From Lingula anatina (lineage: Eukaryota > Animalia > Brachiopoda): a DNA stretch of 64,000 bases. The DNA lies in the NCBI GenBank assembly GCA_051362555.1, contig CM120640.1:23546225-23610224 (forward strand). The letters are read 5' to 3'. Under the pieces are notes generated by a model that saw only the letters and a list, made by a program, of their open reading frames with translations, was not told where the DNA came from and did not search any database. Position 1 is the stretch's first letter. The number at the start of each line of letters is the position of its first letter. The position numbers and the translations under genes are program-made. Below, piece by piece: positions 2,692 through 64,000 of the stretch.

Positions 2692-3073
2692 ATGAGTTCG
2701 TATGTGCCAGAAGACGCACCACAAGTGCGTTTATGTCACTTGCGTAAATGGAGTGACTTCAACGGCTATGGCTTTAATCTCCACGCTGAGAAAGGAAAAG
2801 CAGGCCAGTACATTGGTAAAGTGGATCCGGATTCCCCCGCAGAGGCGGCACGTCTCAAAGAAGGGGACAGAATCGTTGAAGTCAATGGAGTAAATATTGG
2901 CAACGAGAACCACCAGCAGGTCGTCAGCAGGGTGAAAGCTGGAGGGGATGAGACCAGATTGTTAGTGGTAGATGCTGAGGCGGATAACTATTACAAGGAG
3001 CATAAGATTGTCATCAGAAATGACCTTCCATCAGTAGTGGTATTTGCAACACCAGCAGACCGCAATAGTAAAG
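2692..3073 (+). CDS. NHERF1: NHERF-like exon 1 (PDZ domain)
   Basis: ATG at 2692 in ORF 2659-3087, GYGF carboxylate-binding loop, donor G|GTAAGC at 3073/3074. Confidence 0.92.
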
Positions 3074-12000: not shown

Positions 12001-12212
12001 ATAATGGCAGAACTTTTTCAGTTTGTATATTCCCTATGTTATTAAGGCATCTGGATGGGGGGGGGGGGGGGGGGGGGCACTACCTAAAAAAAAGAGTTAT
12101 GTACTTGAGATTATGCTTAATTGCAACACATTAAAATGTCTTAGAGGGGAGCTTGAATTTTCCTGCAATCACATTCTAAACTTGCTAAGTTAATGATACC
12201 ACTGTGGACACA

Positions 12213-12243
<31 letters not shown>

Positions 12244-15200
12244 TCTGGAGAATAAATTTTCTAACAGTGATAATCCACTGCTTCAATTTTTTTAATCAGC
12301 AGGTTAAATACAGATGTTTGAATTAATTCTCTTGATTTAAATGGTGCTAAATATCCTTTTATTCCAGACATGTCGGTAAAGGTGATAGTGAAATTTCTTC
12401 ATTTGTGTTACTAATATACCATAATGAGTTTTATAACTTTTGTGCACTTTCATTTACTGGTTAAATTTTCTTTCATAGCAGAAATATGTTAAAACTAATT
12501 TTTGTAAAAACAGCATGTTTATTTCATGGTATTACCATATTAATATATACCCTGATAGGGTTTCATTTCATACTAATACGTGTGAAAGCAATGTTTTGTA
12601 AGGTGTAAAATAACATAAATCACTGTAGATGTCATTTCACTCTGAATGTAATCTGTTGATGCTCAGGATATGTATTCAGCAGAAAATACCCTCAGTGTTC
12701 GCTGATATGTTGTGTATTCATGAGGTGTAGATATTCTATGTTGTATGTTGTATGTGACTGTCCATTGCAGAGTCATGAGGATGAAGTGGAGGACCTTGCC
12801 AATGACTACGAACAAGTTGACATCAGTCCACCAGAGGAGGTAAAAGCCACTCCCGTGTGCAGTAGATTACAGCTTATAACCCACACCGTCTTTCTGCTGG
12901 ACACCTGTACTCTTATAATTGCACAAATCCAATGATTAATGACTTGTAACATTTCTTACTTCTAGAGATCTCAAGTTCTGATAATTGAATAACAATGTTA
13001 CTGACTCGTTTGTTACTGCCTAAGTTTGATCATGTGTCCTGTTGCTCAGGTTTGAGTGTGTGGAAAGCGCAGTCCAGAGACTGTGGTGCATGCTGTGGCA
13101 TTTGCTTTGCACACGTGCATGCACATCATGCGTACCTGTGATTATGCACTTGCACGTAGTAATAGAATCAAGATACCTAACTAAGTTCAACCTTTGCTTT
13201 CAGACTGTTTCATTTTTTAATCTAATTTATCTTCTTTATGATATAATATAACAAAACAGCACAGTAGCTGCCAAAACATTTTGATAAGCCCCTTTGTTTT
13301 GATGAGACAGGAGACTTTTTGATAGTAATACACTGTCCTTTGATATGTAACTTTTGTGTGGCCCAGACTTATCTTTTTGTTTTGAACTTTTTTCATATTA
13401 TATGGTTTGGCTTTATCACTCTGCTTTCCCTCCAGTCTCTCTGCTTGCTTCATTTAGTTCTGGCAGATAGTGTGCTATGAAACATGTTCTTATTAATAGA
13501 CTACAGTTCTAATTATTAACATGCACGGTAATCTTTTCTCATTTTTCCATAGGAAAACCAAGGGAGTCAGCATGATGCATTTTGTAAAAATATCCATGCA
13601 TTAAATATGACAAGGCCTATTATAATCATATTGTTTGATTAGACATTTAAGACATATATAATTTTGGGCTTCTTAAGGAACTTATAGCAACAGTCATTAT
13701 TATTTCATGTTATGATGCTTAATATTAGTTGCTGAATATGAAATATTGTCTTCATATAAAGATTCCCTTGTACTTATGGTATTGCATTCTTGTCTGTTGG
13801 GGATTTGAATGAATAATATGGCGGTAAATCTGTAAAACTTAGTTCTCATAGGCTCAGCGGTGCATGGTACTTCACAACTATTGTGTTGCGCAGGTGCCAC
13901 AATAGCTTGAATAGTCATACAATGGGAATACCTGTGCATTTTGAATACTGCCACCCCACTGGAGCAGAAAGAGTACTTGTAAAACTGAAACTAGGATGTT
14001 AATGCACCCATGTGCCATATTATGAGTCACATGATGAGGGAAGTTTTTTTTTCTCTCTTGAATCAGAGTTCAATATAGTCATGGGTCCTAATTTTGTGGT
14101 TATGTAAAATTGAAACTAGTTGATTATTTGCCACACAGACATGTACCTACATCTCCATGTATGTTGCTCTTATGCCTTTCATTGGCTATTTCATTGTAAA
14201 CAAAAAATTTTTGGAAAAAAAATTCAGTTTCATTTCAAATGAATGTAGTTTCAATCCAAAGCTTACAACAATGGGATTGGGCCATTAGACCTAGCTAACA
14301 GTAGTGACCCTCTTTGAGATTGAATAGTGCCCTTTGTGGCCAGTGAATATGAGTTTTTTATGGGCACTTGACCCCTAGATGGAAATAGTAATATCTCATC
14401 TTGTTTGGTCAGTTGAAAAAAATTTATAAAGTGACCTGTGAACCGTGCATGACTTCTCATGCACAACAGAGAACAATGCCCATTCTTTGCATCTTTTGGC
14501 CTTTTTTTTAAACCCTTGATTCTAGAGATGCTGGTACAGCTTAAAAGTTGAGGTACTCAGTAATTTGTGAAACTTGTACATTAACAAGTTTTACAGCTAG
14601 GATTTATTTTCATTTATGTATAAAGTTTGGGAATTCATTGGTAGCCATATATCTTCATTTATATATTAAATTTATTTCAAACAAGTGACAATTAGTAGCT
14701 CTTCTCTTTTCTCAGTTTATGCTAGCAGTTATAGTACATCATATTCATATGACGTGATATGATCTGGGTTTTGTTCCTGTGAGGTACATACCTTGCTGTA
14801 CTATCTGTGCAGTGGTTGATGTCTCGATGGTGCAGTGTTGCATGTACCACCGCAATCATCAGCCTGAAGACTGAGCACTCAAGATGGGGTTCCCTCCTCT
14901 GCTTTTTAAAAAGATAGAGAAGTTCTTCTAACTCGATCCACTTGGCTGCTTTTTATCATCTCTGAAAGATTAATATGATCTCTTGGCTGAAGATAACTTT
15001 CTGTAAAAAGCGCCTCCTGGCTTTTTGTCCTGTTTTTTGGATGTAAAACATCTTGCAGCATCTTGTTGTTGTGAAGTGCACTGTGATGTAAGACAAGGCT
15101 CCATGTTGTTGGAATTTCACATGGACAGCACAATGGCTCTAGGCAACTACAGTGTATGACTGTGAGGGTGTGTCCTGGATGAATAAAATCCCATCTCTTT

Positions 15201-18200
15201 CCTTCTGTGCCTCATGTTGTGTAGCACAGGGCGTACATTATTACACACGCCGTAGATTTAGGGTCCCATTTTTAGAGCAAATGACTACTAGGGACATCTA
15301 TCAAGATGACAATCGTACATTACATTTTGTTTATCAAAAACAATGGGGCCAATTCTTTATCCATATTAATGCAAAAAAGGAGATACATATCTGTAATGAC
15401 CCTCTGAACTTAGCCATCTAGCAGTACGTGAAGGACTGGTTGTCATTTGATTAGTTGGTCATCACAGAAGCCAGGGTTGACACTGTCACAGAAATTTGTC
15501 ACTGCTACTGGTTGTGTGTAGCATGCTCATGCCAGCTGGGTGTAGTATAGACTGCAGAAAAAATGGGGAACTCGTGCAACAAGGTAGGGTATGGTGCCAT
15601 ATTTTAACCTATTTTTATTCTCTTGGGAAGGGTATTGTGGAAGTTGTCCCTTTTTTTGGGTAGAAATAGGGGGGACAAGATGCATTTGGCCAGGTTAGCA
15701 GGGCAGAGGTCACTTGGTCAGTTATTTTGTTGTTGAGTTCCATATTTATGAGAGACAGAAGGTTGGTGTCTTTTAGGTGGCCAGCGTATAGAATAGATAC
15801 ATGCATGGTTACACAGAGGAATTTTGGTTGGGCAGATTGATTCTAAAACTTTAAGTCGCCTAATTAAAGACTTGATTTATACACCACAGGAATTCTGTTG
15901 TAGGCTAGGATTTATATTTCCATTTTCTTTTTATGTAGTTCCAACAGTTTTGTATACCCAAGGCCTATGGATACACTTTCAAAGAATGTGATTCCAATCA
16001 TGTCTTTTGAAAAAGAAAAAAAACTAAGCATTTTGCTCCTAAGACACCAGTGACATAGAGTTATCGCCAAAACTTTTTTTACATCACCAAGGATAACCTT
16101 TGATTTTAAGTGAGATTGTGGTTTTGGGAGTTTTAGATAGGGAATTTAGATATGGGTGTGTGCTCAAGTACTTCATAGGCAAAACATTCGAGTGATGGCA
16201 TTGGAGATATGTTGGAAGATGTGGGTGTGTTGCAATAGATAAGTATTAAGATGTACACCTTAAAGCACACACATATATACAGAAAAGATGCAAGTTAAAG
16301 CATGATAATGATGATGTTATTATTAGAGTAATAGAGTAAGCAGGAGACAGAAATGTCCTGTAAACTAAGAGGGTCATGCCACATGGTGTTTTTGATATCT
16401 TTGAATTTTAATACCACTTTTTTTTTTTTTGTGACATAGAGGTGAGGGGGTGGGGTCTTTGTTAAAAGGCTTCAATAAACCTCCCCAATTTATAAACTTT
16501 CAGAAAGACTGATATTTCATTTTTTGTGCAAAAATTTTAGATACAATATAAATAGCCATGTTTCTAGCAAAACTTTTGATGTTTCTTTTTTCAAGAATCC
16601 TGTTCAGATTTTTTCCCCTCAATTTTGATCATGTATACCATTTAATACATATATTCAAAGGTAGGTAGGCAGTGTGGCGCCTGTTTGAGCTCTTTTCCCA
16701 ATGAAACCACATGGACCTAAGGTGACTGACATAGCTACCCGTTACTATGACCAGGATGGTGTAGGTGATTGTCATCAAATGATACTATATGTGACAGTTA
16801 CCCTGGGCCTTTATTATACACCTAGAAGACTGACACCAGATGGATAAGTAGTCGATAAGGACAGCTGTGAAAATATATCTTTCTGTCACCAAAGAATAGG
16901 CGCCAAAATGAGGGCTACACCACATTGTTGTGGGTTTCTGTATAATTTATTGGATGTTTGTTATCTTCAGGATGGTATTTTGAAATACTGGGAGATAAAG
17001 CAGACAGACAGTAAAGCCCGATTATGCTTCGGTAGGACTATGGGGCAAAGCTTTACAGTAAAGATACCACAAGAGTCTATTTTGGAATAAAATGTCTTTG
17101 GTGTCTGTGTATGTTTCTCCCTTCTTTTACTCTCCAGTTTTTCTTGTGTCATACGGTGTCATCTTATCACTACTGGACAGGTAGTACAAATAACTCTGCA
17201 ATGCTGACAGGAGAAAAGCAAGGTAGACAACTAGTGCCTTAATTAGGGACTGTCTCGGTGCTCTTGCTTGTAGGTTGAGTGAATCGAGTGTGACTAGCAT
17301 ATAAAGATATGCTTAATAGATTAAAACAAGGTCCGCATAGTTTGTAATGAGTTAGACATTGTTTTGCCTGATACAACGGTTTGCTTGTCTGGTGTTGTGG
17401 TGGTTGTAGTTGACTTTGGATAGTTTTCTTAGAACATTTGTCAGGATATTAATTGAAAAACAAATCACTTTGGTGACACCAATCAATGAGGAAGGCAAAG
17501 AAACTTTTTCTTTCTTCTACAACTTGGTAAGAATTGCAGGTGTCAAGTGAGCCTTTGTTTTAGTGCTTGGTCAGTAAACACATTAATTTCAAAACCATTG
17601 TTTTGAGAAAGGCTGTTGTTTTTTTACTGCACTTCATAACCTAAGGGAAAAATTGATCTCGTGGTTTCCATTTCAAGAGAGGCTGACAAGAATATTCTCA
17701 AAAAAAAGTTTCTTCAAAGGTTAATAGTACTTGTAATAGTCTTGATGGTTCTGCTCTCTGCCTCCTGATGGCTACAGATAACATGTTTTCCAGTCCTTTC
17801 TGTTTGATGTTGATCTTGCAGTACTTTGAGTAGGATATGAAAGCTGCATGTTTTTTAATATGTGTATATGTTAGTAATGCTAAATTTCACATTGCCTGTA
17901 ATGTCATAAGTAAGAGTATTGATCTGAATATGACATTGCCCTTTCACATTGTTTTGTTATATTTTCTATTAAAGTTTTGTATATTTTAATACTTACTTAC
18001 TACAAGAATGCGAAGATACGATTATATTAAATCTAAATAAAGTAAATGTTAAATGTTGTGAAAATAGTTGCAGAACTATGTTTTGAAATGCTATGCACAT
18101 TCAGCATCAGCACCGCAATGCACACTGGCCCAAATAAGCACCCTGAGTTGCCAGTAGCACATATGCACCAGCCAAACAGCACACTGTATGATGATGATGA

Positions 18201-21200
18201 TGATGATGTGCCACTCTTTTGCTTTTGCCATGTTGTAACCCTGTGTTCTGTGTGCTTGTGTTATACAGCAGAAAGAGCCTGAGGTAGAGGAGCCCAAACA
18301 CACAGAGCCTGAGCCTGAGCTGCCTCCAGAGCCAGAGCCCGAGCCACCAGTAGAGACATCTGTAGAAGCTGAAGTTAAGGCGGAGGAGGTGAGAATTCAA
18401 CCCCCCTATTCCCCCCCCCCACCCCTCTTTCCTTTAACACCAGCCCAGGGATATCCTTGGTTTACTGTGCAAAACATCATAATATCCCAAGCAGGGTATA
18501 ACCAGGCTCAGGATGAATACTACCAGTTTGAACTGAAGGTGGCGATGTCAGGACCCAGCTCTACTAACCAGTTTCAAATACAATGCATGATTGTAATGTT
18601 CATTTCACCCCACTGCATTTGTTTTCTCTCTGACACAGATGACGAGTTTGAAAAGATGTTTAAGCTTGAACTAGTCCTTACGTCCTTACTAAGGATGGTT
18701 TCGGCATGTTTTTTTTTTTTTTTTTGGTTTCCACTGCAGGTGATGGTCATATTGTTAGCATGTTTTTTTTTTTCAATTACAAAATGAATTTGAATTAAGT
18801 TTCAGAACAGTTGTACTAACATGTTTGTTTTCAGTTCATAATCATGCATCTGACCTCCATCTTATGTTTTGGATATTCTTTTTAACCAGGTGTCAAGCTA
18901 TATTAGTTACTATATATATATAAACATTGTAAGGGTTATGGTACCATGTTTTGCCTATACCTAGCAAGTACATGCATCAGCACCAAGTGGGATAAAGGTT
19001 GTTTTTATATGATATTAAGGAGCATATAAGATATTTTAGTAGTGACAAGGTACCCTGCATGCTTAACATATTCTGGACTTTGAGTGGTAATAAATTTGAG
19101 GCTGACGTGCAGATTTTAGCTCTTCTCCTATATTATTTTTGTGATTTTTGTTTTAGAACTGAATGCAAAGATGAATAATGTTGTTTTGAGAAATAGAGAA
19201 CTATGATTATTTTTGTCACAAGTTGTTACTGGTTTTATCTCAGTGTATCATTACTTAAAATATGTCAGTTAAATGGTAATGCCTTGTGAATTTACATATA
19301 ATATTGTATATTCTTTGTACACAAGATAACTTGCATGTGGATGAAGGTTTTCAGTTTTAAGCACATATGGAATTATAGCCATTTAATCAAGGTGCCATTT
19401 ATGTTTATACTAACTGGAAAATCTATTTTTGAGCCTGACTTCTTAACATATTGCTTTCCCACGTTTACCTCCCCCCCCCCTCCCCTCCCCCCCTCCCCCA
19501 GCCCTTTATGTCTGAAGAAAGGTAAATAATATATAAACAATTCGTAATGGATTTAGTAAAAAGAAGAATGGAAAGGAAAAAAGGTTTCTTTGCCAGTGGC
19601 TGACAACACTAAACAGATGTTTCAGTTCTCCAAATAAAAATAATAGGAAAGAAAAAAAAAAAAGAAAACCTAAGCACAGTTGTTATGCAGGCAAATAAGA
19701 TCAGTAATAAAACCAGTGCCAGTTGGGAAAATTGCAGTTAGCAAGTTTAAACACATGCTATGGTTGCATGTTTTTAACTTGTCTGTGCTATGATTAACAG
19801 AAATTTGAAGTAAGCACATTGCTGCTTTTCATCAACAAAGTGGTACAGTGATAAAAAGCAAATAGTCGTAACATCTGCCATTCGGATTTTTTAGGAGGCC
19901 ATTTCTGTTGTTTTGACTTTTGTTTTTCAAACCATCTTAGTTCATGCTTATGGAAGTGGAGATGTGTTTGTAGACTAACAAGTACACTTTGTTTGCATGT
20001 TGTCTTGTTATTTGTCTTTTTTTCCAGTTCTTCATTTTTTGCATGCAATTCCCCACATATCAGCCTGTGTGCATGTCTGTTTTTTTATTTTGACAAATTA
20101 ACCATGGTACTGGTGGTTCGAAATTTTTTTTATATAAGGAAGACAGTAAAGATATTTTCCTTGTTTGCATGTTAACTTGGTTTTGGCAATAGTATTTAAA
20201 CTAGAAAATCACTCAGAGAGTGCAACACTTTGCCAAGGCAGCTCAATTCTGACTATTGATTTATTTAGTAATAGATCACCACCAAATTCTTATGAATTCT
20301 CTGTTAGTCCATTTCTTGCCTATCCTGAAAATTTTTATTGAAATCTGTCTGTAACTTTTTGAGCTAGGGTGTTAACTTACCAACAAAGGCAAAAAGATAT
20401 AAAGGTGAATGAGATTGTGAAAATACTACATTGGTTGATAGGAGGTGGAAGGAATGATATAATATTATACCATTATAGAATATTGTGAATATGATATTAT
20501 TCCATATTAGATCATATATCAGCCTGTGGCTTTGCCAGTAATCATAGGATGTGGTATGGTTCAGAGTCACTTACATTAAGTTATCCTTGAATTAACAGCA
20601 TGGGTGGAGAGATTTGGGTTGACATCAGATTGATTATCCTAGAATGCGTAGGATAATGACACATTGTTTATGTAATTGTAGCCTGTCCAGAATGGATCAG
20701 CTGTGCAGGAGGACCACTTGGAGGTGGAGAATGAGACAGGAGAGGTGAGAATTCTAAGGGAAAGAATATTAGATTTATTAGATGCCCTAGCCATTCAGAA
20801 CAGATATTATATGACAATTTTCCTTCCTCCCAGGGGTGAGGTGTGGAAATAGATTTTAATGAAATGGGTGACATTTTGTCATTTTATGTTAGTGATAAGA
20901 TTGTCCAACATTGGATTAATGAACCCTTTTGTGAATACTTCTATGGAACTTGCTTTTCAGTGATGTATGTGATCTTTGCTTTGTTCGTTTAACTTAACAC
21001 AGAAGAATTGTTATTTAACTTAACACAGAAAAATATTCTGAACACATTATGTGTTACATCATCAACCTGGTTGCTCTAATCACAGCTTTCTACAATGTGA
21101 TTTGCTTATAGATTACATTACTTACTGACCCTGACTGCTTGTTGTAGAGCACATTATGAAATATGTTTCAGTATCAGGCAGTGCAATAATTTGAGTCGGA

Positions 21201-24200
21201 AAGCTTTAATGCTGGGCAGGAATGGTATATTGTAACTGTACATGTAGTGTCCACTGTGGGCAAAATTGTAAAAAAAACTGATGCAAGATTGTTAGAAAGA
21301 CCACTTCTCTTAATTAAAAAGGGAAGTGCATTACAAAACTGAAACATGAAATGAGAGGCTTGAGCAAGTCTTGAGTTATTCATAAAGCAGCCGTGTTTGA
21401 TTGGAATACTTCAGTGTGATAATATATGTTTTTTCGGCTCTAAATATTTTTGTTTGAAAAGAATAGACAGTAAACAATTGGTTTTTAATAATGTTAGAAA
21501 TATTGAGATACTTATGATGGAGATAGAGATAGGTAATTATCTGGAGGAAGAGTTTAACAAAAAAGAAGATAATTAATTCCATTTTTCCTAATTATCATGT
21601 ACATTTTTTCCCCATAATATTCATTGCTTGCAAATACATTGTCTGTAGCAGATTGAGGTAGTGACTTTCCTTTCTCTACACAAAAAAATTGAATATTGAA
21701 CTTTGCACAGAATGTGTTCCTTCTAGCATGTTATAGATTATATTAGCCATGGCTGCAATGATTGATTGGGTGTCATAAAACAGCTTTCCTCGCAATTGAT
21801 ACTGTAATGTGATTTGTATTCAGTCTTCATGGGCAATTTACAGACATGTTTTAATTAACCTTTCTGTCTTCTTCCCTACCCAGCTGAGTAGCATTATCAT
21901 TTCCATGAAGTAATTCAAGAGAGAGGAAAATTTCCTTTCATGTAAGATTTAGGTTTATGTAATAAGGGAACGGAGGGAGTATTGCGTGTGTATATACTAG
22001 GACTTGGTTGGTAAATGAGTCCATCTATTTTTATTAACATTCATCTCTAATCATTTCACACCTGCCTCACAGGTGAAATGATTTAAAGATTGTACGTGGC
22101 ACTCAAATACACCTTTTGGTATGCTCTGTCATGAAATTTCCACGAGGAATTATGTAATCTTATTTTATTTGAGCAATTTCCCCTACTTGCGTGGGCACCT
22201 TTGAAATTCTGTTATATATTAGTTACAGCAATAGTTATCCACTGTATGTGATGTACAAGAGAGTAATTATATGAAAGTGTAGCCAAGATATAATTTGCTT
22301 ATGAGTCTGCTGACGTAACTTTTCCACCTGGTCAAAATGGTAACAAAAACTAATCAACAAAGTGGACATGACATAAGTTTTCATGTATTTAGAATTAACA
22401 TGTGATGCTTGGAAGTCAAAATTTTCATCATTTTAGGCAAACAGCAGGGCAAGCATTCCAAGGCAAAAACACCTTTTGTTAATAATGTTTTTTCCAGGTG
22501 TAAAATATAGTTTTAATGGGGTCAGTGATGTTAGTGAGCGATAAGATAAATAAAGGAATCTGATAGTAGGAATGGCGGAATAGAAAATAGCTGACTAACA
22601 TTGCAATCTCTATTAACTTCTGTTGGTTTCCTTTGCTTGACAAATGTTTGTGGAAAGACTGACTTCAGATAAATGAACTGTATTTCAGTCTGAGCCACAT
22701 CATCATACAGATACATCCTCCTCGGCTTCAACTCACACTGGTAGTGAGCAGGTAAAAAAATGACTATACTCAAAGTCATGAACAGTATGTCTATTGTATT
22801 TCTGGTAGAAAAAAATGTGTATTAGAAGTAGTTGTATTAACAGCGAAACCCTGTCTTCTTGGCAGCATGAATTCTCAGTAAATTTGATTTTTAAGTCAAC
22901 AGTATTTTCATTCTTGTTAGACTTTGATCGGTGACTAACTGTTCAAAGTCCTACAAACTGGATGTAATTTGTTTCGTTTTTTTTTCCTTCTTTCTATTTT
23001 GAGATAGTTTGTGTTTAACTGCATTGGATCCCATCTGAAGTATTGTACAGCTGAATAACACATATAACATGCTAATGGTTATCACTAACCAATAGAAATG
23101 GCAGCAGCATATAAAAGTGTGGATATATAATTATATAACATGATAGGCAGGGCCATTGGGATGTTCTCCAGTACTATAGATTTGGGCAGTGTCAATGTTG
23201 GTGTGACTCTGTGTTTGGCTCCTTACTATTTATATGACTTCAAGGCTGTTTCCCAGTGTGGCTGACAAGGACAGAGTACTAATACAGAGTTGAGACTGGT
23301 TGTACCAAAGACACATTGTTTTGTCTACCAGGTTTACTAAGTTCTGTTATTGTGGGTATAGGTTTAGATTTGGTGAGAATGCTTTAGCAGGGAATATTAC
23401 ATCTGATCACATGTGTGTTGTGGGGTTAAGGTTGCTCTACTGCAATAGTGGTAATGCAAAACCACATAATAGAGTGATATATGTTAAAGTCATGTATACT
23501 GTGATGTTTTTTGATCCCTTGGCGAGGCTAACATTTCTGTCTGTCCTAAACTGCTGATTATGACAGTGATGTCTTGAGAATGGTAATGGTATTATTCTCA
23601 AAGTTCATGTTTGGTACAACCCTAATATTCCGGTTTGAAAATAGAATTTATTTAATCCACATGGATAAGGGATTAGCTGGTGTTTGGGTAATGCACTATA
23701 GTGATCTCTTTTACAGCATAGTCTGCGTTCTGAAGCCAGTACATCTGAGAAGGAGCCTTCAATTCAGTCTGAACAGGTATTTGTGTGCTGTACCAGATAT
23801 AATGATAGTTTTTAATCTGTTTATATATAAAGTCTTAGATAGCCACTGCTTTTTAAATTTATTTATTTATTTATATTAGTGCAGTGATGTTTTGTGAAAT
23901 TCTGTTCAAATTTCTCTTTACAAGTACTATACATAATTTCTTCATTGTCTAACGACAGTGAAAATACTTTGTATCAAGTGTCATTCTTCCTCGCAGCACT
24001 TCCTGGTATTTGCGTTCATCTTCATCTGATGTACAGAGATCAAATGTTAATTGCATCTAATGGCGAATGGATGGCTGTTGTTACTAGATCAATTGTGTAG
24101 AACCCTCAGAGACCTGCAGCATCATTTTCTCATATCCTATCAATAAATCAGACTCTGAAGAATCAATTTGTGTGGTTGCCTTTCAGCATGAAGTGAGTGC

Positions 24201-27200
24201 TCCAGAGTCTGCTGGATCTGATAAAGAGCCTTCAGTACATTCTGATAGGGAACCCTCAATCTCTGACAAAGAGCCATCAGTCCATTCTGATAAGGAACCT
24301 TCTGTTCATTCTGATCACAACCAGGTACTTGCTCTTATATGTGATCTCTGCAAGTAATGGATCTGATCAAATATGGACACCTAATGCTTGTAAATTATAC
24401 TAATGAGAGTAAGCTTGGTTGGTATATATAGATATATTCAACAGGTTTTAGGTTCTAATATAATGTCATGCAGCATTCAAGTATTGTCTTCAGGGCAAGC
24501 ATGTGTGTGTTTATATTTTACTTAGAATCAGTTAATATAACAAGTTAGAAGTGGGTTACCTCTGGTTACCAATGCTAATTTTAAATATCATGACAGGTCA
24601 GTTGGTCACTTGCTTACTGTGTTGGTATATGTCTAGTGGTATAGCATATTTGGATGAAATGTTTGTCATTAGTGTGGTAGGTTTTGGTTAAAAAAAAGAA
24701 AAAATCTGGATGAGTTAAGAATAACAAGCCATAATTGCAGGACTGTTGTTGTTGTTGTTGTTGCTGTTGTTGTATTAGTGGGCAGTCAGATGGTTCAATT
24801 ACCTACTAACATTATATGTATGAAATGTGTACCTACTGACAGTGTTTGGAGGTGTTTTAAAATATAAATTCAAAATTGCCTTAGTCAGAAATTTAACAAC
24901 TGGGCTTGGATTATACTTCATGTGGGAGTGACTAAATTATCATGTTATTACACTAATTTCATTGTCTATAAAGTTTTTCTTTTATTATTATACACTGAAA
25001 TGTCAAGAATAGTCTTTACTGCTAGATTAAACATTTAAAATTTTTATCTTTAAGGTTGTATATTTGAATCAAAAAAGAGGATCATGAGTATTATCAACAG
25101 TGCAGCAGCATTTTAGCCTGTGTATGATTAAAGAGTTTGAACCATTTCTTGCATGTTGGTTTAAGCAGGAAGAAGAGGACCTGCCACCGCCGCCCCCACC
25201 CCCACCACTGGAGGAGGAAGTCGGTCATTCTGACCAGGTAGAGGACATGTCACCTGTCTGTTATGATTTACGCTTTAGAACTTATATAACAATTTACTAC
25301 TGATTTTTTTCTGAAAAAGTGCATGGTTTATTCTTGTGTATAGACAGAAAATGTATTTACATAAATATTTGATATGTTAAATATACATATATATATATAT
25401 ATCCAACAGATAGGTGTATTTGATCCGACGAGGGAAGTAAGTGGATTGATGTTAGTGATGTTAAATTCTTGGAGACTGCCTTTCTTAGAAGCAACATACA
25501 GAAAGCGAGTATTCTGATAATTCTTGTTAGACTGTAGAGTAAAAGTTGACATTTAGGGCCAGCCAGTTTTCTCCATCCTCAAATTTGTTTCCAGCAAGAG
25601 GAAGCCACAGAGACAGTAGAGGCTGAATATGAACCTCCAGTTCATTTAGAACAGGTACACAGGACCATGGTTTGAATAGTGTTAGGGTTTTCATTGTAGA
25701 TTTATGTATTTTTGGATGAATAAGAATTTACAAAACTAGTTTCTTAAAAGAGTGTGCTACTTTAAACTTGTTATACCAGGAATAGTTTTGACAACTTCTG
25801 ATATTAATAGTATCCCAAAGCATAGGCAATACAGGTCATGTAGGGTATAAATGTGGTAGAAAAGATTGACCCCACCTTTGATATGTTTTAAGCAAGAAGA
25901 GATGGCAGAAGAAATACTAGAAGTGGAACCTGAGGTTATAGCTGACACATCAGAACAGGTACCACCCAAAGCCAAGTTGTGAGGTGTAGAATTAGTCAAA
26001 TAGTCTATTTGTGGGCTTAAAAAGAATTTACAAAACTAGTTTCTTAAAAGGGTGTGCAACTTTTAATTTGTTATGCCAGGAAAAGTTTTGACAACTTCTG
26101 ATATTAATAGTATCCCATAGCATAAGCAATACAGGTCATGTAGGGTATAAATGTGGTAGAGAAGATTGACCCCACCTTTGATATGTTTCAAGCAAGAAGA
26201 GATGGCAGAAGAAATACTAGAAGTGGAACCTGAGGTTATAGCTGACACATCAGAACAGGTACCACCCAAAACCTAGTTGTGAGGTGTAGAATGAGTCAAA
26301 TAGTTCATTATTCCTAGTCAGGGCAGTTGAGAAATAACAATCAGGCAAGACAGAAGGGCCTTTTCAGGCAGATGAGGTATTTGGGAGTACAGTGTTACAC
26401 TAAATAGAGTGGAACTTGTAAAACAAAGAAGAAAGCATGGGAGACAACAGGTGTCATTTATTAATTATCGTTGATAAAGTTTACATTTGGAATGTGGGAT
26501 GGCAATACCAAAATTAATTGTAGTCACATGAATAGGAAGTCATTTTAGAAGTGGACATGGGATAGTAAGTCATAACTATTTATTGTGTCATTTTTGCAAG
26601 CATGCCTAACAAATCTTAAATATGTGGTTTACTTACAATGTGAAGGAGTTAGATTGTCTAGTCAAGGCTAGGTAAAGCCTCTAGTTTTGATGCTAGAATG
26701 GTATTAGTAAATAAGAGAGTTGGTGTCCATTAAAAATCAAAGATCTAACTGTTTGGATAGTCACCATATTTTTTTTTTTAATTAAAGAAATTCAGATGTA
26801 ATTTTATGGAGATATCATGCATGGAGATATGTGGTATATTTAAATGTGATGTAGAACTCACTTTTGAAGGTAGATGGGACAAAGAATGCTGATTGATAAT
26901 TCCAAAAATTGATCAGTGGAATTTAGAGAATCTTATGGTTATTAAGAAACTAGTCACTGGGGCACTTAGTTAACCTTTGACAAGGTGCTGGATTACTATT
27001 ACACTGAATTATGAGAATGCTTTTTCTTAGTGTGAGGATGTGCCACCACCCCCAGAGGAAGAAGAACTATCTACACACTCAGATGAGGTACATTAATCCT
27101 TTTTGAAATATTTAAAACCTGTTAAGGTATTATTAATTGACCAACATACACAGCAGCATTGCTGTGGAGAGTAGAGAAAAAAGTCAACTCTGGACATTGG

Positions 27201-30200
27201 GGCATAATTAATTTAAATACACTGCCATTATTTCTTTGTCATCAGGAATTGTCAGAAGTGGTACAAAATGAGACAGAAGTGGCCGTCCAGGCAGATGAGG
27301 TACATGTCATTTTAAGATGAGATGGTGCAGTATCAAAAATGTAGATTATTTCATCTATGATGCAGATGATTTTTATCAATTATGAAGATTTTTTTCTATA
27401 ATGTAATGACACATCTTCAGATCAAGTTTTGAATACTGATTTAGTCCATGGTATAAGGTTGTGTGAAAAGGACTAAAAAATATCTGTGTCTTACTTAGTA
27501 TGAAGGTAGGAATAATCTTACAAAACTAATAATAAATAATATGACAGCATGAGTGGTAGGTGGATAAGTTATGTAATCATATTTCAAAGGTTTTTGTAGA
27601 GTTATAGGAAGTTTGGGCAAGGTAGATCACATTGGTTAAAAATTTAGAAGAGTTGTGATAATGTACTGGTGCAGGGATAGGGATCATTTTCTGTCTGAAT
27701 TCAGAAGGGTTGTGATGTTTTCTGGTGTGTATGTTTTAGATGTTTGAACAGGTAGCTATTAATCCTCATTGTACAACAAGCAAAGGAGAAGTGAATAGGT
27801 AAAGTTAAGGTTGTATTGATTCTGTTAAGGTTTTGATGAAGTAGTTATGACACAGATCAGTGCATGAGGATGGGGCATTTGGAGATTTGATGTAATATAA
27901 TCTAACCAGTTTGTTTTATTGCAGTTGGACATGATAAGTAATAGATACAGTGTTGTATGAGGAGAGGTGATCCAGAATCTCTTAAAATTCCAGGAAATGG
28001 GCAGTGATTTGTAACTCAATGTTTCTTTTTGTCGTGAAATTGATGCAAAGGTATCGGATACACACAAAAGTCTAATACAAGCATGTACTGAATTTGATCA
28101 AAAATTTAATGACTTTGGCATTAACAAGACATGAATGATGAGTCATAAAAATATTTATATAATAGATGTCAAATGTTTTCACAGTGTGAACAGTTGCCTT
28201 AACAAGACATGAATGATGAGTCATAAAAATATTTATATAATAGATGTCAAATGTTTTCACAGTGTGAACAGTTGCCTTCACCTCCAGAGGAAGAAGACCT
28301 GTCACCACATTCAGATCAGGTATTGGTTATTATTTTTTTTCAGTTATAATTTTTTAAAACTTTTTTTTGTCTCTTAAAACAATATTGCCCTTTGGCAATT
28401 TCTGATAAATGCACAGAGTATGTTCCAGACCATGTAACTCACCCTTCATTATTCCCTTTTGTTATCAGGAATTACCAGAGCCACCAGCACCCGAGGCAGA
28501 GGTGCCTGTCCACGCAGATGAGGTATATAAATGTTGGTGGATTTGAAAGATGTGTAATCTTCATTAGATGTACAATGGTGTGGTGATGTAACTAACACTT
28601 TGAATTTGTTATCAGATGGTGTAGAGAGAGAAGATGCATTGGTTCTGCCATTTTGTGCAAGGGGACTAAATATGCTAATAATGGAATTATGATAGCAATC
28701 ATTGCTCAGCTTTTGTCTTTGTTTTTCAGGAGCCTTCACAGAATGATAATCATGACTAAAATTGATCAGTATAGCCTTTGAATTGACTAATCTCTTCATT
28801 GTCATGTTGTCTGGTATTTGTGGTATTGTGCAAAGTCTATTCATTGTGTCTTAAGGAGTATATCCTTTCACAGGGTTGAAATATAAGGTGTTTAGAACAG
28901 TTATTTTACTAACAAGACCGAGTTAATTCAGTCAGTAATACAGGGGATGGTATTCCTGGGTAAAAAAGTAACAAGGAGACAACTGCCAGGTTTGCCTTCC
29001 CAAAAGTTAAATGGTAATACTACTAGATCTAGCAGGAATGAAGAACCTACTGTTAATCCTTGGTGGCAAGTAGAGCAAGAACATAATTGATATGGTATAT
29101 TGAATTACTGTCCACTCATATGTGGCAATTTTACTCAGAATTTATAATCACACAATTCAAAGTATCACATTAATCATTCGGCCATTCCTTTGAAAGCAAG
29201 TGCAATGTTGTCTGTGTTCATGACATTTGGTTGATGCAAACATTTACATTATTGTGCCAGAGTGTCAGAGAACTTTTTTTAAACTCATAAGTGATTCTCC
29301 AAGTTGTTCTCTTCCAGCAGGAGGTAGCTGAGGAGGTGGCAGAAAAGACACCTTCTGTCCACTCAGAACAGGAGGAACAGGTACTGGCAGTGAGGATAAC
29401 ACTCATTCTATACGCTCTCATTTTATGTGTATCTCATATATATTTTCATACTGTACTATGAGAAATTGGTTCCAATTACTATTTGGATCAAAAGACTGGT
29501 TCTATTGTAACAAATGCATGCAAACACAATATATAAATTTTACCTTAAGTTATTTTCATCTTGAGTGCCCAGCTTTAGTTATAGGAATGATTCTTGCCTT
29601 TGTAGAAACAGTTATCTTCTGACAGTCAGTCAGAGAAGGAACCCTCAGTACATTCTGACAAGGTAAAAAGTCCAAAGGCTTGCTGATGCATGGGCCAGGC
29701 ATATTTTAACTAAATGCCACTAACAATGGTCAGAGATACTGGCATAATGATATTATTTTTTTGTTTTGTTTTAGCCATTGGTCAGGGAATATCAAGTTAC
29801 ATTATTTAACAGCATGTATTCTGATGAAAGATTGATTGTTGGTATTTTTTGTGGTCTTTAATTTGGGTATCAGTTCAGATTAACATGTTATTTATTGTTT
29901 TTGTTATTTATATAGAATTGATTTTTTTTGGCATTCATAGACTAATATTTGGATGCATTTAAGCATGTCTAAGATAAGGCCATATGTGTTTATATGTCAA
30001 GTATGTTTGGAAGCTAACCTTAAACCAGGGTCACATAAGAAAGCATGTATACAATCAGAATAGGAATATAGGAAGGGATTTTACACTATATGTTACAGGA
30101 AGGGATTTTACACTATATGTTATATATATTTAGACAATAATACCAGACATATGCAGTCAAAATAATATATGCTGATGCTTTCTGCTGAATGTTTTGCTAC

Positions 30201-32871
30201 GAAGCATTTTGAAATAATTATGTCGCTTACTAATGTCTGGTTTTGTACTCCAATATGTCAGCCAGGTAATCAACATGTTACAATTTGTTTCAGATCTTTT
30301 TCATAGACTGCATGTGCTTTATATCTGCTTTTTTGAAGCATTTTCATTGTTTTGTCATTTTGATAATGATGAATTTACTTAATGGACATTAACCAATGAT
30401 TACACGTCTTTTCTTTCAGGTGCACAAAAAAAAAAAAAAAAAAAAAAAAACTGTAATGAAAGTTTTACAAATAGATTAAAGGCAAATTTTTTCCTGTTAT
30501 TTTAGTCTGTTTGACAAAAGTGATATAAAAGCATTTTCAGAAGTAACTTTGTAAATGTATGAGATGTTTTACATTTGGCCTTGACTTTCCACCACTAGGT
30601 GTCGCCAGAGCCAGTAGAGGTGGTCCAGGATGAGGTGAGATAGCCACTGTGTGCTGTGTCTCTCTAGCTGACACTGCTTATCACTAACAGCATCTTCTAC
30701 AGCTTTTTTTTCACAGTGAAGATATGAATACCATTTTATGAAATTTGCAAATTGCTGTGTGGTTGTTTTCATCTTTCTGTGACTTAAAAGATCCAAAGGG
30801 GGGATATGAAAATATTAACACCACAAATGAATTTCAGTGGTGTGAACTTTGTGTGGAGTTTTCTTTGCTTGGGGTTGTTTACCCATGCTCAGCTTTTCAG
30901 AGTGCTCATAGAAATGAAATTTACAGGGTCATTTTAACATCTATGGTTTTAAGTTATGCATTTAGGCATACAAAACACGATAACTACCTGGTTTTATGAT
31001 AATTTTAACTCGATATTTGTTAAATTATTTAAACCTACATGTCATTGGTTTAAACAGTTTACAGTTGTACTTGTCAACAAACTTCGGCTTGCAGCTGCTT
31101 ACTGCTCTGCTCTGTGCACTATGTATTGAAAAATGTAACAGTTTTAATTGGCCAAAAACATTTCCTCAGCAGGAAGAGCAGAAACAAGAAGAGCCAGAAC
31201 CTGAGCTAACCAATGGCCATGATAAGGTGAAAAAATGACCGATATATTCACATTGTTTTTATCTTGACTTTATGAAGATCATTTCCTCTCAAAAATCCAT
31301 AACCTGTGAGTGTCATATGCATTGGTCCTAATTTCAAATGTAAAAGTCAAGTGTGGTGTTGTCTCAGAACTTTTGCTTTGATTAATCTCAAGTATTTCTT
31401 CACTGTAAAAAGTTAGTGGAAGAAATATCAGCCAATACAAGTTGCAGTTGGTTGCTGTGCTGTGTGCTTTAACATTTATGCAAAGTTGTCACAATTTCAG
31501 GAAGAGGAGGAACCGCCAGCTGCTGCTGTGGAGGTGAGACCAGTGCTGACATCTATGCCTGAGTTTGTCCTTTGCATGCTTCATTTTTTTTTCTTTTACG
31601 CCTCAAGTTACCATTTTAGGCATTCAAACATGCAAGTTACTAATTATGAGTAAATATTTTGAGATGTGGAAAGGAAAGATTCCCCCCAAGCCATGTTCAT
31701 TATTAAAATGATACCTTAAAAATTTCAAATTACTCTGAATATTAATTTTCCCATTTTTTTCCTGTCATTTATTTGAGACTTAAGTTTTTATTTTGGCTTT
31801 CACTTCACCAAGCAGCTTTATTCCCTGTCCAACTGCACTGATATATAGAAGTTTATGCACACACATTTTGTATCCTTTCACATCACAGTCGCAAGGCTCT
31901 CATTAAAGCATTTCAGCAAATGCTCAATCATGTTCACATTGCACATGGCACCAGTGTGGAATGAGAAATCCAAAACTGCTGTAATTAGTAGAACACATTT
32001 AATGCAAGAAGTCCTGCATGTATGAGTTGGCAGGGAAACTAACATCATTTACATTTGTTGATTTATTATGTATTAACCTTTTTGTTCCACCAGATGGCAG
32101 CAGGAGGTGGTGCATGAATATGTACTCAGGAGTACAGAAGAAGGCCTGGGGATACATACTTATTCTGGGCATGCGTTACCATGTTTCAGCTCTTGGTTAT
32201 TGCCCACTGTGTTTTTACCCTGAGTCATAGGTTGAGGGTGTCATGATCATTTTCAGTACTGTACTGAAAATGTACTACTAACATCTCTTGCATGAAATTA
32301 CTTCAAATGATGAGATGAAAACTGTGGTATATAAGATTTCAGCCTATTACCGGATGGGACGCCAAGGATAAAAACTGCATCTCTGCGATAAAGGTTTTGG
32401 AATTCATATGGTGAACTTTAGTGTTATAAGATTCCAACTGCATGAAGGTGAAGTATGGTTATGTGGGAAATGTAGCAGCATTCTGACTGATTGGTAACCG
32501 CATGCTGAAGGGAATGCTGCTTTGCTGTTTAACATGATATGACTTTTTCTCCTCCCTCATTCTAGGAGCCACAAAGGGAGCCCACTCCACCACCACCACC
32601 CCCTGCTGAACCCGAGCCAGAGCCCGAGCCAGAGCCAGCTCCTGTTGTGGAGCCACCACCTCCTGAGCCTGTACATGTAGAGGAACCAGCTCCTGTCAAG
32701 GCAGCAGCCCCCCAGCCTCCAGCCCCCTCTCCTCAGGCCAACGGGGACACTCTGAACTTACCCATGTCTGCCAAGGAAATGAGGGAAATGCTGAAAAAAC
32801 GCAAAAAGGCTGATCCCAAGTCACAGCATGTACCATTCCAGAAGAAAAATGAGATGTTCCAAAGATTGTGA
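2692..32871 (+). CDS. NHERF1: NHERF1/EBP50 (Drosophila Sip1-like) PDZ scaffold gene, up to 20 coding exons, ~257-630 aa depending on cassette use
   Basis: Exon 1 encodes a NHERF-type PDZ ([65 protein letters not shown]). The last exon ends in the EBP50/Sip1-type ERM-binding tail [23 protein letters not shown]...KKNEMFQRL*. Splice phases are consistent: exon 1 ends in phase 1, exon 2 restores phase 0, and all later exons are phase 0. The symbol is family-level only. Confidence 0.88.
11483..11568 (+). CDS. NHERF-like exon 2 (E)[28 protein letters not shown], phase 1 to 0
   Basis: Strong acceptor ttttctttcttttcttatag; 86 nt restores the frame; donor GAG|gtttgt. Confidence 0.8.
12771..12839 (+). 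CDS. Linker cassette exon, 69 nt, [23 protein letters not shown]
   Basis: ttgcag acceptor, GAG|gtaaaa donor, multiple of 3, acidic. Confidence 0.75.
18269..18388 (+). CDS. Linker cassette exon, 120 nt, [40 protein letters not shown]
   Basis: tacagCAG tandem acceptor, GAG|gtgaga donor, PE-rich, frame-preserving. Confidence 0.8.
23717..23776 (+). CDS. Linker cassette exon, 60 nt, [20 protein letters not shown]
   Basis: ctcttttacag acceptor, CAG|gtattt donor; shares the S(D/E)KEPS motif with the 24187 and 29606 exons. Confidence 0.72.
24187..24324 (+). CDS. Linker cassette exon, 138 nt, [46 protein letters not shown]
   Basis: cctttcag acceptor, CAG|gtactt donor; internal SDKEPSVH repeats with synonymous codon variation. 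Confidence 0.8.
25166..25237 (+). CDS. Linker cassette exon, 72 nt, [24 protein letters not shown]
   Basis: ttaagCAG tandem acceptor, CAG|gtagag donor; the poly-Pro uses mixed codons (CCA/CCG/CCC). Confidence 0.78.
25595..25654 (+). CDS. Linker cassette exon, 60 nt, [20 protein letters not shown]
   Basis: tttgtttccag acceptor, CAG|gtacac donor. Confidence 0.75.
25893..25958 (+). CDS. Linker cassette exon, 66 nt, [22 protein letters not shown] (copy 1)
   Basis: ttttaag acceptor, CAG|gtacca donor; lies in unit 1 of the 300-bp duplication. Confidence 0.68.
26193..26258 (+). CDS. Linker cassette exon, 66 nt, [22 protein letters not shown] (copy 2, identical)
   Basis: tttcaag acceptor, CAG|gtacca donor; exactly 300 bp downstream of copy 1. 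Confidence 0.68.
26304..26380 (+). pseudogene. Degenerate paralogue (pseudo-exon) of the 54-nt 27246/28469 exons
   Basis: Shares ttcattattcc...tcag upstream and ...CAGGCAGATGAG|gta at the end, but is 55 nt (26322-26376). It has TAA in the homologous frame and TGA when read from the acceptor. Confidence 0.6.
27031..27087 (+). CDS. Linker cassette exon, 57 nt, [19 protein letters not shown]
   Basis: tttttcttag acceptor, GAG|gtacat donor; paralogue of the 28263 exon. Confidence 0.75.
27246..27299 (+). CDS. Linker cassette exon, 54 nt, [18 protein letters not shown]
   Basis: tttctttgtcatcag acceptor, GAG|gtacat donor; paralogue of the 28469 exon. Confidence 0.72.
28121..28278. repeat. Perfect 78-bp tandem duplication spanning a 3' splice site
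   Basis: 28121-28198 is identical to 28199-28276 and includes ttttcacag|TGTGAACAGTTGCC. Confidence 0.93.
28263..28319 (+). CDS. Linker cassette exon, 57 nt, [19 protein letters not shown]
   Basis: ttttcacag acceptor, CAG|gtattg donor. Confidence 0.72.
28469..28522 (+). CDS. Linker cassette exon, 54 nt, [18 protein letters not shown]
   Basis: cccttttgttatcag acceptor, GAG|gtatat donor. Confidence 0.75.
29318..29380 (+). CDS. Linker cassette exon, 63 nt, [21 protein letters not shown]
   Basis: ttctcttccagCAG tandem acceptor, CAG|gtactg donor. Confidence 0.78.
29606..29662 (+). CDS. Linker cassette exon, 57 nt, [19 protein letters not shown]
   Basis: ttcttgcctttgtag acceptor, AAG|gtaaaa donor, KEPSVHSD motif. 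Confidence 0.72.
30599..30634 (+). CDS. Linker cassette exon, 36 nt, [12 protein letters not shown]
   Basis: ctttccaccactag acceptor, GAG|gtgaga donor. Confidence 0.7.
31170..31226 (+). CDS. Linker cassette exon, 57 nt, [19 protein letters not shown]
   Basis: tttcctcagCAG tandem acceptor, AAG|gtgaaa donor. Confidence 0.77.
31501..31533 (+). CDS. Linker cassette exon, 33 nt, [11 protein letters not shown]
   Basis: aatttcag acceptor, GAG|gtgaga donor. Confidence 0.72.
32566..32871 (+). CDS. NHERF1: NHERF-like terminal exon: P/E-rich segment plus ERM-binding (EBP50 C-terminal) helix
   Basis: Acceptor ctttttctcctccctcattctag. [24 protein letters not shown]...[35 protein letters not shown] resembles the KKNELFSNL end of human EBP50. 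Confidence 0.88.
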   Translation, partial: EPQREPTPPPPPPAEPEPEPEPEPAPVVEPPPPEPVHVEEPAPVKAAAPQPPAPSPQANGDTLNLPMSAKEMREMLKKRKKADPKSQHVPFQKKNEMFQRL

Positions 32872-40993: not shown

Positions 40994-41386
40994 TTACAGT
41001 TCATTCATGTAATAGATTTCTGCTAACACACATTTGAAACATTGAAAGAATATGTTGCTGTCAATCGAATCAGCTCCAAATCCCCATAGATACCATGTTT
41101 GTATTAAAAATAAATCCAGTCCGACGGCCTGTTTTAGCCAAGGGTACTGGTTCCGTAACCAGTCTGCGAAAGCAACCAACTCATCTTCGTGCAAATGGGA
41201 GTCCTTGTTTGTGTCTATGACGTTGAACCAATCTGAAACTATGTCAAACCAACCAGGACATAATTCAGTTGAATAACACGAACAAGCTTCGTCTATTCGT
41301 CTATCGCGTATCGATGGTGTGGTCTTACCGCTCATAAATAGTGCCGCATGAACCAACATTATTATTGCCACTGTAGTGCCGTTCAT
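40994..41386 (-). CDS. Small predicted secreted EF-hand protein (130 aa), with a 5' UTR intron at 41404-41509
   Basis: Hydrophobic N-terminus MNGTTVAIIMLVHAALFMSG, RDRR site, EF-hand loop DTNKDSHLHEDE and 5 Cys. A CAG|gtaatg donor (41510/41509) and a tttacag acceptor (41404/41403) lie upstream of the ATG. Confidence 0.65.
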   Translation of the reverse strand: MNGTTVAIIMLVHAALFMSGKTTPSIRDRRIDEACSCYSTELCPGWFDIVSDWFNVIDTNKDSHLHEDELVAFADWLRNQYPWLKQAVGLDLFLIQTWYLWGFGADSIDSNIFFQCFKCVLAEIYYMNEL

Positions 41387-41787
41387 GTTTACGGTCCTTA
41401 GATCTGTAAAATTTACATATGTTTCTAAATGTTTAAAATATCCTGACATAAACGCCATAAAACGAGGATTAATTTTAATTTTAACTAAATGCATTTTCAT
41501 TTTCATTACCTGTATATAACTCCTGAGGATGCAACTTGTATGACAGGCAGTTGCTGCAGCATGAAGGTTTCAATCTTTTGTTGGGAACAAGAAATGATAT
41601 AGTGATATTTAACTCTTCAGATAAATGTCTTTGAAGGCCTCATGCATACGGGAATCCATTAACTGGCTTTGAATTAGACGTTTTTGTATTAAAAGCATTA
41701 AAAAGAGAATATCTGATGCAGGTGGCAGTTAATGGCAGCGATGAAGACTTGGGGCGCGAAATGTTGGTGGGGGATCAAGGCGTATAA

Positions 41788-51848: not shown

Positions 51849-64000
<12,152 letters not shown>

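What the first reader, a model, noticed from the sequence alone, without database searches (positions are those of the whole stretch)
12771..31533. NHERF/EBP50 scaffold with 17 symmetric mini-exons forming a splice-tunable, PEVK-like spacer between the PDZ and ERM-binding ends
Seen: 17 exons of 33-138 nt lie between exon 2 and the terminal exon. Each is bounded by AG/GT, is a multiple of 3, is phase 0 and stop-free, and encodes E/P/V/S/D-rich low-complexity peptide. They total 1119 nt (373 aa) on a 257-aa core, so any subset keeps the frame (2^17 theoretical combinations). Established: NHERF1/Sip1 link membrane cargo (PDZ) to ERM proteins and actin (C-terminus); EBP50 is regulated by head-to-tail closure; titin tunes its PEVK spring using many short symmetric exons. 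Inference: splicing here sets the length and charge of a disordered tether, and so the membrane-to-cortex distance or autoinhibition, per tissue. I do not know of this architecture in NHERF family genes.
Basis: partly seen in the sequence, partly recalled or inferred. Interest (0 to 1): 0.88.

Follow-up and report, generated by a model that had tools for sequence, protein, structure and literature searches.

The report
Splice-telescoping acidic tether in brachiopod NHERF
In a lamp shell, the gene for a membrane-to-actin linker protein carries 19 short in-frame exons, and RNA reads show them spliced in or out in blocks, which likely changes the reach of a floppy acidic spacer and would optionally add predicted docking sites for an actin-building protein.

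Summary
Observation confirmed and extended. The gene is the single-PDZ NHERF/Sip1 orthologue of Lingula anatina (100% hits). There are 19, not 17, phase-0 mini-exons (1245 nt, 415 aa). RNA reads from 7 runs give 22 junction types touching 14 of 19 exons. Splicing is block-wise, not free: 12-14 read-supported paths, not 2^17. Exons E-F-G-L-M behave as one module; H-I-J-K-K2 show no listed junction. The spacer is predicted disordered and acidic, but lysine-poor (3%), so only loosely PEVK-like. Head-to-tail autoinhibition is doubtful: the tail ends FQRL, and 0 of 63 invertebrate tails have Ser/Thr at -2. Novelty is partial. RefSeq lists 13 isoforms, an archived 644-aa model holds 17 of the 19 exons, and all 8 gastropod species examined have spliced acidic cassettes at the same place. 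New here: the block module, its three Ena/VASP-type FP4 motifs (3 vs 0.15 expected), Rbfox/Quaking motif enrichment in the introns, and signs of ongoing exon duplication. Function is untested; tissues are unknown.

The parts
2692..3073 (+). Exon 1 coding part: ATG and the single NHERF-type PDZ domain (phase 1 end)
   Evidence: folded with pLDDT mostly above 90
11483..11568 (+). Exon 2; brings the frame to phase 0
   Evidence: loose read ends e2>A and e2>B
12771..12839 (+). Mini-exon A (69 nt), mostly included
   Evidence: junctions A>B, A>P, A>N
18269..18388 (+). Mini-exon B (120 nt), alternative
   Evidence: A>B, B>C, B>N, B>P
20682..20744 (+). Mini-exon C (63 nt), alternative; entry to the central block
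   Evidence: B>C, C>D, C>E, C>N, C>P
22689..22751 (+). Mini-exon D (63 nt, Ser/Thr/His-rich), rare
   Evidence: C>D 3 reads in X7; RefSeq X13
23717..23776 (+). Mini-exon E (60 nt), first of the E-F-G-L-M block
   Evidence: C>E 13, E>F 19 reads
24187..24324 (+). Mini-exon F (138 nt), internal 24-nt repeat, six [ST]xx[DE] sites
25166..25237 (+). Mini-exon G (72 nt), Leu plus eight prolines in acidic flanks (FP4 motif)
   Evidence: F>G 21, G>L 22 reads
25595..25654 (+). Mini-exon H (60 nt), no listed junction
25893..25958 (+). Mini-exon I (66 nt), first copy of a 300-nt tandem duplication; no listed junction
26193..26258 (+). Mini-exon J (66 nt), identical peptide to I; no listed junction
26322..26376 (+). 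Dead exon copy X (55 nt, in-frame stop), paralogue of K2 and M
27031..27087 (+). Mini-exon K (57 nt), paralogue of L; no listed junction
27246..27299 (+). Mini-exon K2 (54 nt), paralogue of M; no listed junction
28263..28319 (+). Mini-exon L (57 nt), FP4 motif
   Evidence: G>L, L>M
28469..28522 (+). Mini-exon M (54 nt), FP4 motif; last of the block
   Evidence: L>M 25, M>N 22 reads
29318..29380 (+). Mini-exon N (63 nt), common re-entry acceptor
   Evidence: B>N, C>N, M>N, N>O
29606..29662 (+). Mini-exon O (57 nt)
   Evidence: N>O, O>P
30599..30634 (+). Mini-exon P (36 nt in the window, 48 nt in RNA); second re-entry acceptor, on every read-supported path
31170..31226 (+). Mini-exon Q (57 nt)
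   Evidence: P>Q, Q>R
31501..31533 (+). Mini-exon R (33 nt)
   Evidence: Q>R joint and R>terminal loose ends
32566..32871 (+). Terminal exon: proline/glutamate stretch, then two predicted helices of the EB-like tail ending FQRL
11569..32565 (+). Introns of the array, enriched in TGCATG and ACTAAY elements

Best explanation
This is the Lingula NHERF/Sip1 gene, whose 19 frame-preserving mini-exons are spliced in nested blocks, and this likely sets the reach of a predicted disordered, acidic tether between a cargo-binding PDZ domain and a tail that would bind ERM proteins. Shown: donors of A, B or C join acceptors N or P, skipping what lies between, while E-F-G-L-M go in together; read-supported paths add 69-297 aa. 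Shown by sequence: most of the array grew by tandem exon duplication. Inferred: Rbfox- and Quaking-type proteins control inclusion. Inferred: the PDZ-to-tail distance changes about 1.5-1.7-fold (roughly 8-12 nm to 12-20 nm rms), altering how far cargo can sit from the actin cortex and how tightly it is held near ERM. Inferred: the long form also brings in three proline motifs.
For: 22 junction types (17 joints, 5 loose-end groups) in 7 runs. 122 reads follow the chain C>E>F>G>L>M>N in three runs, with no listed skip inside it apart from H-K2. Use differs between samples: A>P 17 vs A>B 35 in X7, against 0 vs 21 in X1 (p=0.002); block joints 8 in X5 vs 0 in X4 of the same study, each with 14 N>O reads (p=0.013). 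Model with an 8-row alignment: PDZ confident, residues 121-383 without helix or strand; FoldIndex-type score -0.48. TGCATG 27 vs 10.3 and ACTAAC 14 vs 3.8, 0 of 2880 shuffles each, none of 26 ACTAAY in the branch zone. 8 of 8 gastropod species examined have in-frame acidic cassettes at the same position, with spacer net charge -0.14 to -0.26 per residue.
Against: No functional data. Counts are small, mates may double-count, only 6-30% of each run was read and the tests are uncorrected. Study P3 differs genetically from the window, so genotype and tissue are confounded. The block is a minority form (about 17% in X7 by junction ratio; no listed block joint in X1, X4, X6). Polymer scaling gives only a modest change in distance. 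Bivalves, ticks and Priapulus examined lack a spliced acidic spacer there, so it is dispensable in other lineages. Dead and duplicated exon copies suggest weak constraint.
Confidence: 0.5

Rival explanations
1. The central block is a motif switch, not a ruler: including E-F-G-L-M adds three Ena/VASP EVH1 (FP4) sites and a run of possible CK2 sites, so the long isoform recruits an actin-elongation factor to ERM-anchored cargo.
For: All three [FWYL]PX(hydrophobic)P matches in the 19 exons fall in G, L and M: 3 vs 0.15 in per-exon shuffles, p=0.0002. Skipping H-K2 joins them directly. G has extra prolines and acidic flanks, features reported to raise ENAH binding, as are multiple motifs (PMC8789275, passages). 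E and F hold 8 [ST]xx[DE] sites (assignment to CK2 recalled).
Against: The motif was chosen after seeing exon G, and shuffling breaks proline runs, so the p-value is overstated. The strict motif occurs in only 2 of 17 orthologue spacers (Babylonia, Aplysia); looser variants occur in Haliotis, Littorina and Dermacentor. Such motifs also fit SH3, WW or profilin partners (recalled). Binding is untested.
Confidence: 0.22
2. The array is mostly tolerated clutter: phase-0 acidic exons duplicate easily inside a low-constraint linker, and splicing variation has little effect on function.
For: I/J are a 300-nt tandem duplication at 93% identity; K-K2 and L-M are a duplicated unit (269 of 384 nt identical, introns included); X is a dead copy. 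Five exons have no listed junction. Unspliced reads hint at copy-number differences between populations. No sequence family was found for the spacer (a blank that proves nothing).
Against: Strand-specific enrichment of two known splicing-regulator motifs, coordinated block use, 19 of 19 intact frames, and the same spliced acidic spacer in gastropods.
Confidence: 0.22
3. Spacer length tunes head-to-tail autoinhibition as in human NHERF1, by changing the local concentration of the tail at the PDZ groove.
For: Human NHERF1 closes through its own C-terminal PDZ ligand (PMC10987488 and PMC7866199, passages). Estimated local tail concentration would fall about 4-fold from the shortest to the block-containing form.
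Against: Class I binding needs Ser/Thr at -2 (PMC7866199, passages); human ends FSNL, Lingula ends FQRL, and 0 of 63 invertebrate EB-like tails have Ser/Thr there (41 Q, 19 E, 2 D, 1 M, rows include redundant isoforms). Lingula keeps the PDZ1-like domain and has no PDZ2, the domain that closes in human.
Confidence: 0.06

Closest known systems
Drosophila Sip1 / C. elegans NRFL-1 / human NHERF1 (EBP50) and NHERF2
   Same: NHERF-type PDZ (best solved match 2KRG, E 1e-29) and a C-terminal EB-like tail; a single PDZ as in Sip1 (PMC8860247, passages).
   Different: Spacer up to about 500 residues built from 19 cassette exons; no class I ligand at the C-terminus; one PDZ rather than two as in vertebrates and gastropods.
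Gastropod NHERF isoform sets in RefSeq/GenBank (Haliotis x3, Littorina, Gigantopelta, Patella, Babylonia, Pomacea)
   Same: In-frame, acidic, lysine-poor segments of up to 115 aa differ between isoforms in the last-PDZ-to-tail spacer.
   Different: Two PDZ domains; only about 2-4 separable cassettes visible per species from protein data; no sequence match to the Lingula exons; exon counts not obtainable here.
Titin PEVK region
   Same: Many short exons, tandem-duplicated, encoding a disordered Pro/Glu/Val-rich segment (about 100 exons, mean 76-93 nt; PMC6469411, passages).
   Different: Lingula mean ratio 0.58 vs 0.79-0.84; lysine 3%; strongly net-negative; nothing shows that it bears load as a spring.
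CaMKII variable linker
   Same: Alternative exons set the length of a disordered linker between two functional ends (10.1101/721589, abstract).
   Different: There the readout is kinase activation in an oligomer, and linker length mattered for only some paralogues; here the readout is unknown.
CD44 variant exons
   Same: A tandem array of cassette exons included in runs (v8-10, v7-10) under ESRP1, with RBFOX2 and QKI also reviewed (PMC10722200, passages).
   Different: Extracellular stalk of a membrane protein (recalled), not a cytoplasmic scaffold.

Membership tests
NHERF/Sip1/NRFL-1 scaffolds | NHERF-type class I PDZ with GYGF loop | tested here: met
   Pfam PDZ E 1e-13; the top 18 solved-structure hits are NHERF1/2 PDZs; 74-82% identity to PDZ1 of 10 of 10 spiralian orthologues
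NHERF/Sip1/NRFL-1 scaffolds | C-terminal ERM-binding (EB) tail, by sequence | tested here: inconclusive
   Clearly shared with invertebrate orthologues (tblastn E down to 1e-7; an ant protein at E 9e-4); aligns with the human tail in 2KRG only at conditional E 0.0017. No EBP50 C-terminal Pfam family was listed for it or for 4 other invertebrate orthologues; tail-only PDB searches found no NHERF peptide
NHERF/Sip1/NRFL-1 scaffolds | Tail binds an ERM FERM domain | not testable with these tools
   Shown for C. elegans NRFL-1 (PMC8860247, passages); not tested for Lingula
Vertebrate NHERF1/EBP50 proper | Two tandem PDZ domains | tested here: not met
   Only one PDZ exon in the window by tblastn with 7 orthologues
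Vertebrate NHERF1/EBP50 proper | C-terminal class I PDZ ligand (Ser/Thr at -2) for head-to-tail closure | tested here: not met
   Ends FQRL; 0 of 63 invertebrate tails have Ser/Thr at -2
Titin PEVK-type spring | Array of many short, duplicated, alternatively spliced exons | tested here: met
   19 exons, mean 66 nt, paralogous groups
Titin PEVK-type spring | High P/E/V/K(A) ratio, lysine included | tested here: not met
   Mean 0.58; 3 of 19 exons reach 0.79; K 3.1%
Titin PEVK-type spring | Bears tension as an entropic spring | not testable with these tools
   No data
Ena/VASP EVH1 ligands (FP4) | [FWYL]PX[FWYLIAVP]P in a disordered, acidic context | tested here: met
   Three matches in G, L, M (pattern as in PMC8789275)
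Ena/VASP EVH1 ligands (FP4) | Measured EVH1 binding | not tested
   No binding test

The most novel reading that the evidence does not exclude
Brachiopods and gastropods have turned the NHERF linker into a splice-programmed device. An Rbfox/Quaking-controlled exon block both lengthens the cargo-to-ERM tether and installs three Ena/VASP docking sites, switching a passive membrane-cortex scaffold into one that recruits actin elongation, with the exon array still duplicating within the species.
Probability: 0.15. Interest if true: 0.75.

Novelty: new variant of a known kind. Interest (0 to 1): 0.42.

Why it matters
NHERF regulation is known mainly from vertebrates, where phosphorylation and head-to-tail closure control it. 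If some invertebrate lineages regulate the same scaffold by splicing the length and motif content of its linker, that is a different control layer on a core apical and microvillar protein. It offers a natural isoform series for testing whether tether length sets membrane-to-cortex spacing. The general principle (spliced disordered linkers) is established, and many isoforms are already in databases, which limits the surprise.

Tried and rejected
No whole genome was held, so paralogues elsewhere in Lingula and genome-wide motif backgrounds were not checked. The run search listed no indexed RNA holder; nine same-species raw-read runs were offered and seven were laid, X7 twice, X2 and X3 not at all. 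Neither stretch held exon 2 together with the last exons, so a full skip from exon 2 to P or beyond is untested; 6 joints and 14 loose ends and 15 loose ends were not shown. Artefact joints were set aside: 31534>18326 (terminal exon resembling B) and 24282>24238 (repeat in F). The single-sequence fold of the 644-aa model was uninformative, as even the PDZ scored below 50. The PDZ tree left PDZ1 as a polytomy; PDZ1 identity rests on BLAST identities. Tail-only searches reached few relatives. Alignment A3 held two unrelated fragments and was dropped. The ESM Atlas gave no usable hit for the spacer. MBNL and ESRP motifs were not enriched. My first coordinates for D and K2 were off by one and were corrected. 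The scan's earlier findings held nothing. Rejected: a second PDZ hidden in the introns; chance exons; all exons constitutive.

Full report
Gene and organism. Exon 1 (2692-3073) encodes a PDZ domain whose best solved relatives are NHERF1/2 PDZs. It matches Lingula anatina proteins at 100% identity. The terminal exon (32566-32871) ends in a basic, helix-forming tail shared with mollusc, annelid and priapulid orthologues. Only one PDZ exon is present. It is 74-82% identical to PDZ1 and 59-67% to PDZ2 in 10 of 10 orthologues. The layout is therefore like Drosophila Sip1, which also has one PDZ (PMC8860247, passages; its supplementary EB alignment was not seen).

The array. Nineteen phase-0, stop-free exons of 33-138 nt lie between exon 2 and the terminal exon: 1245 nt, 415 aa. 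The peptide is 26.5% E, 12.8% P, 10.8% S, 8.7% V and 3.1% K, with net charge -0.29 per residue. Controls found essentially no such exons on the other strand, in intron 1, downstream, or in resampled sequence; that rule was tuned on the exons, so it is descriptive. A fold of the 416-aa isoform with an 8-row alignment gives a confident PDZ, no secondary structure over residues 121-383 and two tail helices.

Splicing is real and block-wise. Seven of nine offered RNA runs were laid, 6-30% of each read. They show 17 junctions as joints and 5 as loose ends. Donors of A, B and C jump to acceptors N or P. In three runs 122 reads follow C>E>F>G>L>M>N. All 22 listed G-donor reads go to L, so H, I, J, K and K2 have no listed junction; the listing threshold is 3 reads. 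P, Q and R are on every read-supported path, though RefSeq models skip Q or R and one mixed loose end in X4 hints at Q>terminal. The read graph allows 12 paths (14 if D>E is added) and 126 with annotation-only junctions, against 2^19; paths are an upper bound, since short reads do not link distant choices. Use differs between samples (p 0.002-0.013, uncorrected, small counts). Tissues are coded, and study P3 carries many fixed differences, so only X4 vs X5 compares within a study. The block is a minority form: about 17% in X7 by junction ratio, and no block joint was listed in X1, X4 or X6.

What is already on record. RefSeq lists isoforms X1-X13. Together they use 11 of the 19 exons and none of G-M. 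An archived 644-aa protein holds 17 of 19, lacking D and R (the second half read by eye). None of these 14 proteins has the E-F-G-L-M form that the reads show. In all 8 gastropod species examined (6 genera, chosen because they had several isoforms), isoforms differ by in-frame acidic segments between PDZ2 and the tail; spacer ranges include 148-263 aa in Haliotis rufescens and 73-150 aa in Patella. Bivalves have a neutral spacer of about 50 aa, Priapulus 42 aa, and hard ticks a long neutral one with only 2-3 residue changes. Literature searches (listings only, open-licence PMC and bioRxiv) showed no paper on a splice-variable NHERF spacer; subscription journals were not searched.

Origin. I and J are a 300-nt tandem duplication at 93% identity. 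K-K2 and L-M align over 384 nt with 269 identities, introns included. A 55-nt dead copy sits at 26322-26376, and E, F, O and H share a repeat. Unspliced P3 reads include a joint from 28154 back to 26945, carry I-type alleles at two J positions, and leave the I bin thin. This suggests copy-number differences between populations; it is an inference from few reads.

Regulation. Array introns hold 27 TGCATG (10.3 expected) and 14 ACTAAC (3.8 expected); 0 of 2880 dinucleotide shuffles reached either, the reverse complements were unremarkable, and none of 26 ACTAAY lies in the branch zone. Densities are about 4-fold (TGCATG) and 6- to 11-fold (ACTAAY) above intron 1 and the downstream 30 kb. These are the RBFOX and QKI motifs (PMC12064062, passages). 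Against: I noticed them by eye first, the ACTAAY strand test gave p=0.22, and GCATG was mildly enriched downstream too.

Mechanism. Most likely, block splicing sets the length of an acidic tether between PDZ-bound cargo and ERM-anchored actin. Simple scaling gives 8-12 nm rms for the shortest read path and 12-20 nm with the block, a modest change. The PEVK comparison is loose: mean ratio 0.58 against 0.79-0.84 in titin (PMC6469411, passages). Autoinhibition is doubtful. Human NHERF1 ends FSNL, and class I binding needs Ser/Thr at -2 (PMC7866199 and PMC10987488, passages); Lingula ends FQRL and 0 of 63 EB-like tails among 120 hits have Ser/Thr there. A further lead: all three FP4 matches fall in G, L and M (3 vs 0.15 expected), with features that favour Ena/VASP binding (PMC8789275, passages). 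The strict motif is in only 2 of 17 orthologue spacers, and the test was post hoc. Tissue-specific exons often encode disordered, motif-bearing segments (PMC3437557, abstract), and CaMKII linkers and CD44 variant exons are precedents (10.1101/721589, abstract; PMC10722200, passages).

Verdict. The feature is real, larger than reported, and truly alternatively spliced, but in blocks. It is an extreme, partly annotated case of a known principle, paralleled in gastropods: a new variant of a known kind, interest 0.42.

Noticed in passing
window 36249-37975, 44127-45865, 47565-50386 (+): Three tandem MFS-transporter paralogues, each with a long final exon (Pfam MFS_1).
   Followed up: partly
window about 53900-62900 (-): Multi-exon DOCK-family gene; one exon hits DHR-2 Lobe A.
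   Followed up: partly
window 40994-41569 (-): 191-aa open frame with an EF-hand-like stretch, read by eye.
   Followed up: no
window 28730-28759 (+): Exon-like segment after a strong acceptor with a stop after 9 codons; possible dead copy or alternative last exon that would remove the tail. No junction listed.
   Followed up: partly
window 30599-30634: The window allele of exon P is 12 nt shorter than the form in the listed RNA junctions and annotated proteins: a haplotype deletion or an assembly error.
   Followed up: partly
window 25709-28154: Reads of study P3 suggest a single I/J unit and an extra K-K2 unit, plus a 507-nt intronic deletion (27411-27919): possible exon copy-number variation within the species label.
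   Followed up: partly
window 31170, 29318, 25166, 18269: Tandem NAGNAG acceptors; RefSeq X2, X9 and X11 use the shifted site at Q.
   Followed up: no
P0157/P0018 (Dreissena), P0175/P0051 (Ornithodoros), P0176/P0178 (Mercenaria): Isoforms with alternative C-termini; Dreissena has two different EB-like tails.
   Followed up: no
P0003/P0163 (Priapulus): NHERF-like protein with 11 PDZ repeats; isoforms drop whole PDZ units.
   Followed up: no
P0087, P0077 (oysters): The Glu/Pro repeat tract lies between PDZ1 and PDZ2 rather than before the tail.
   Followed up: no
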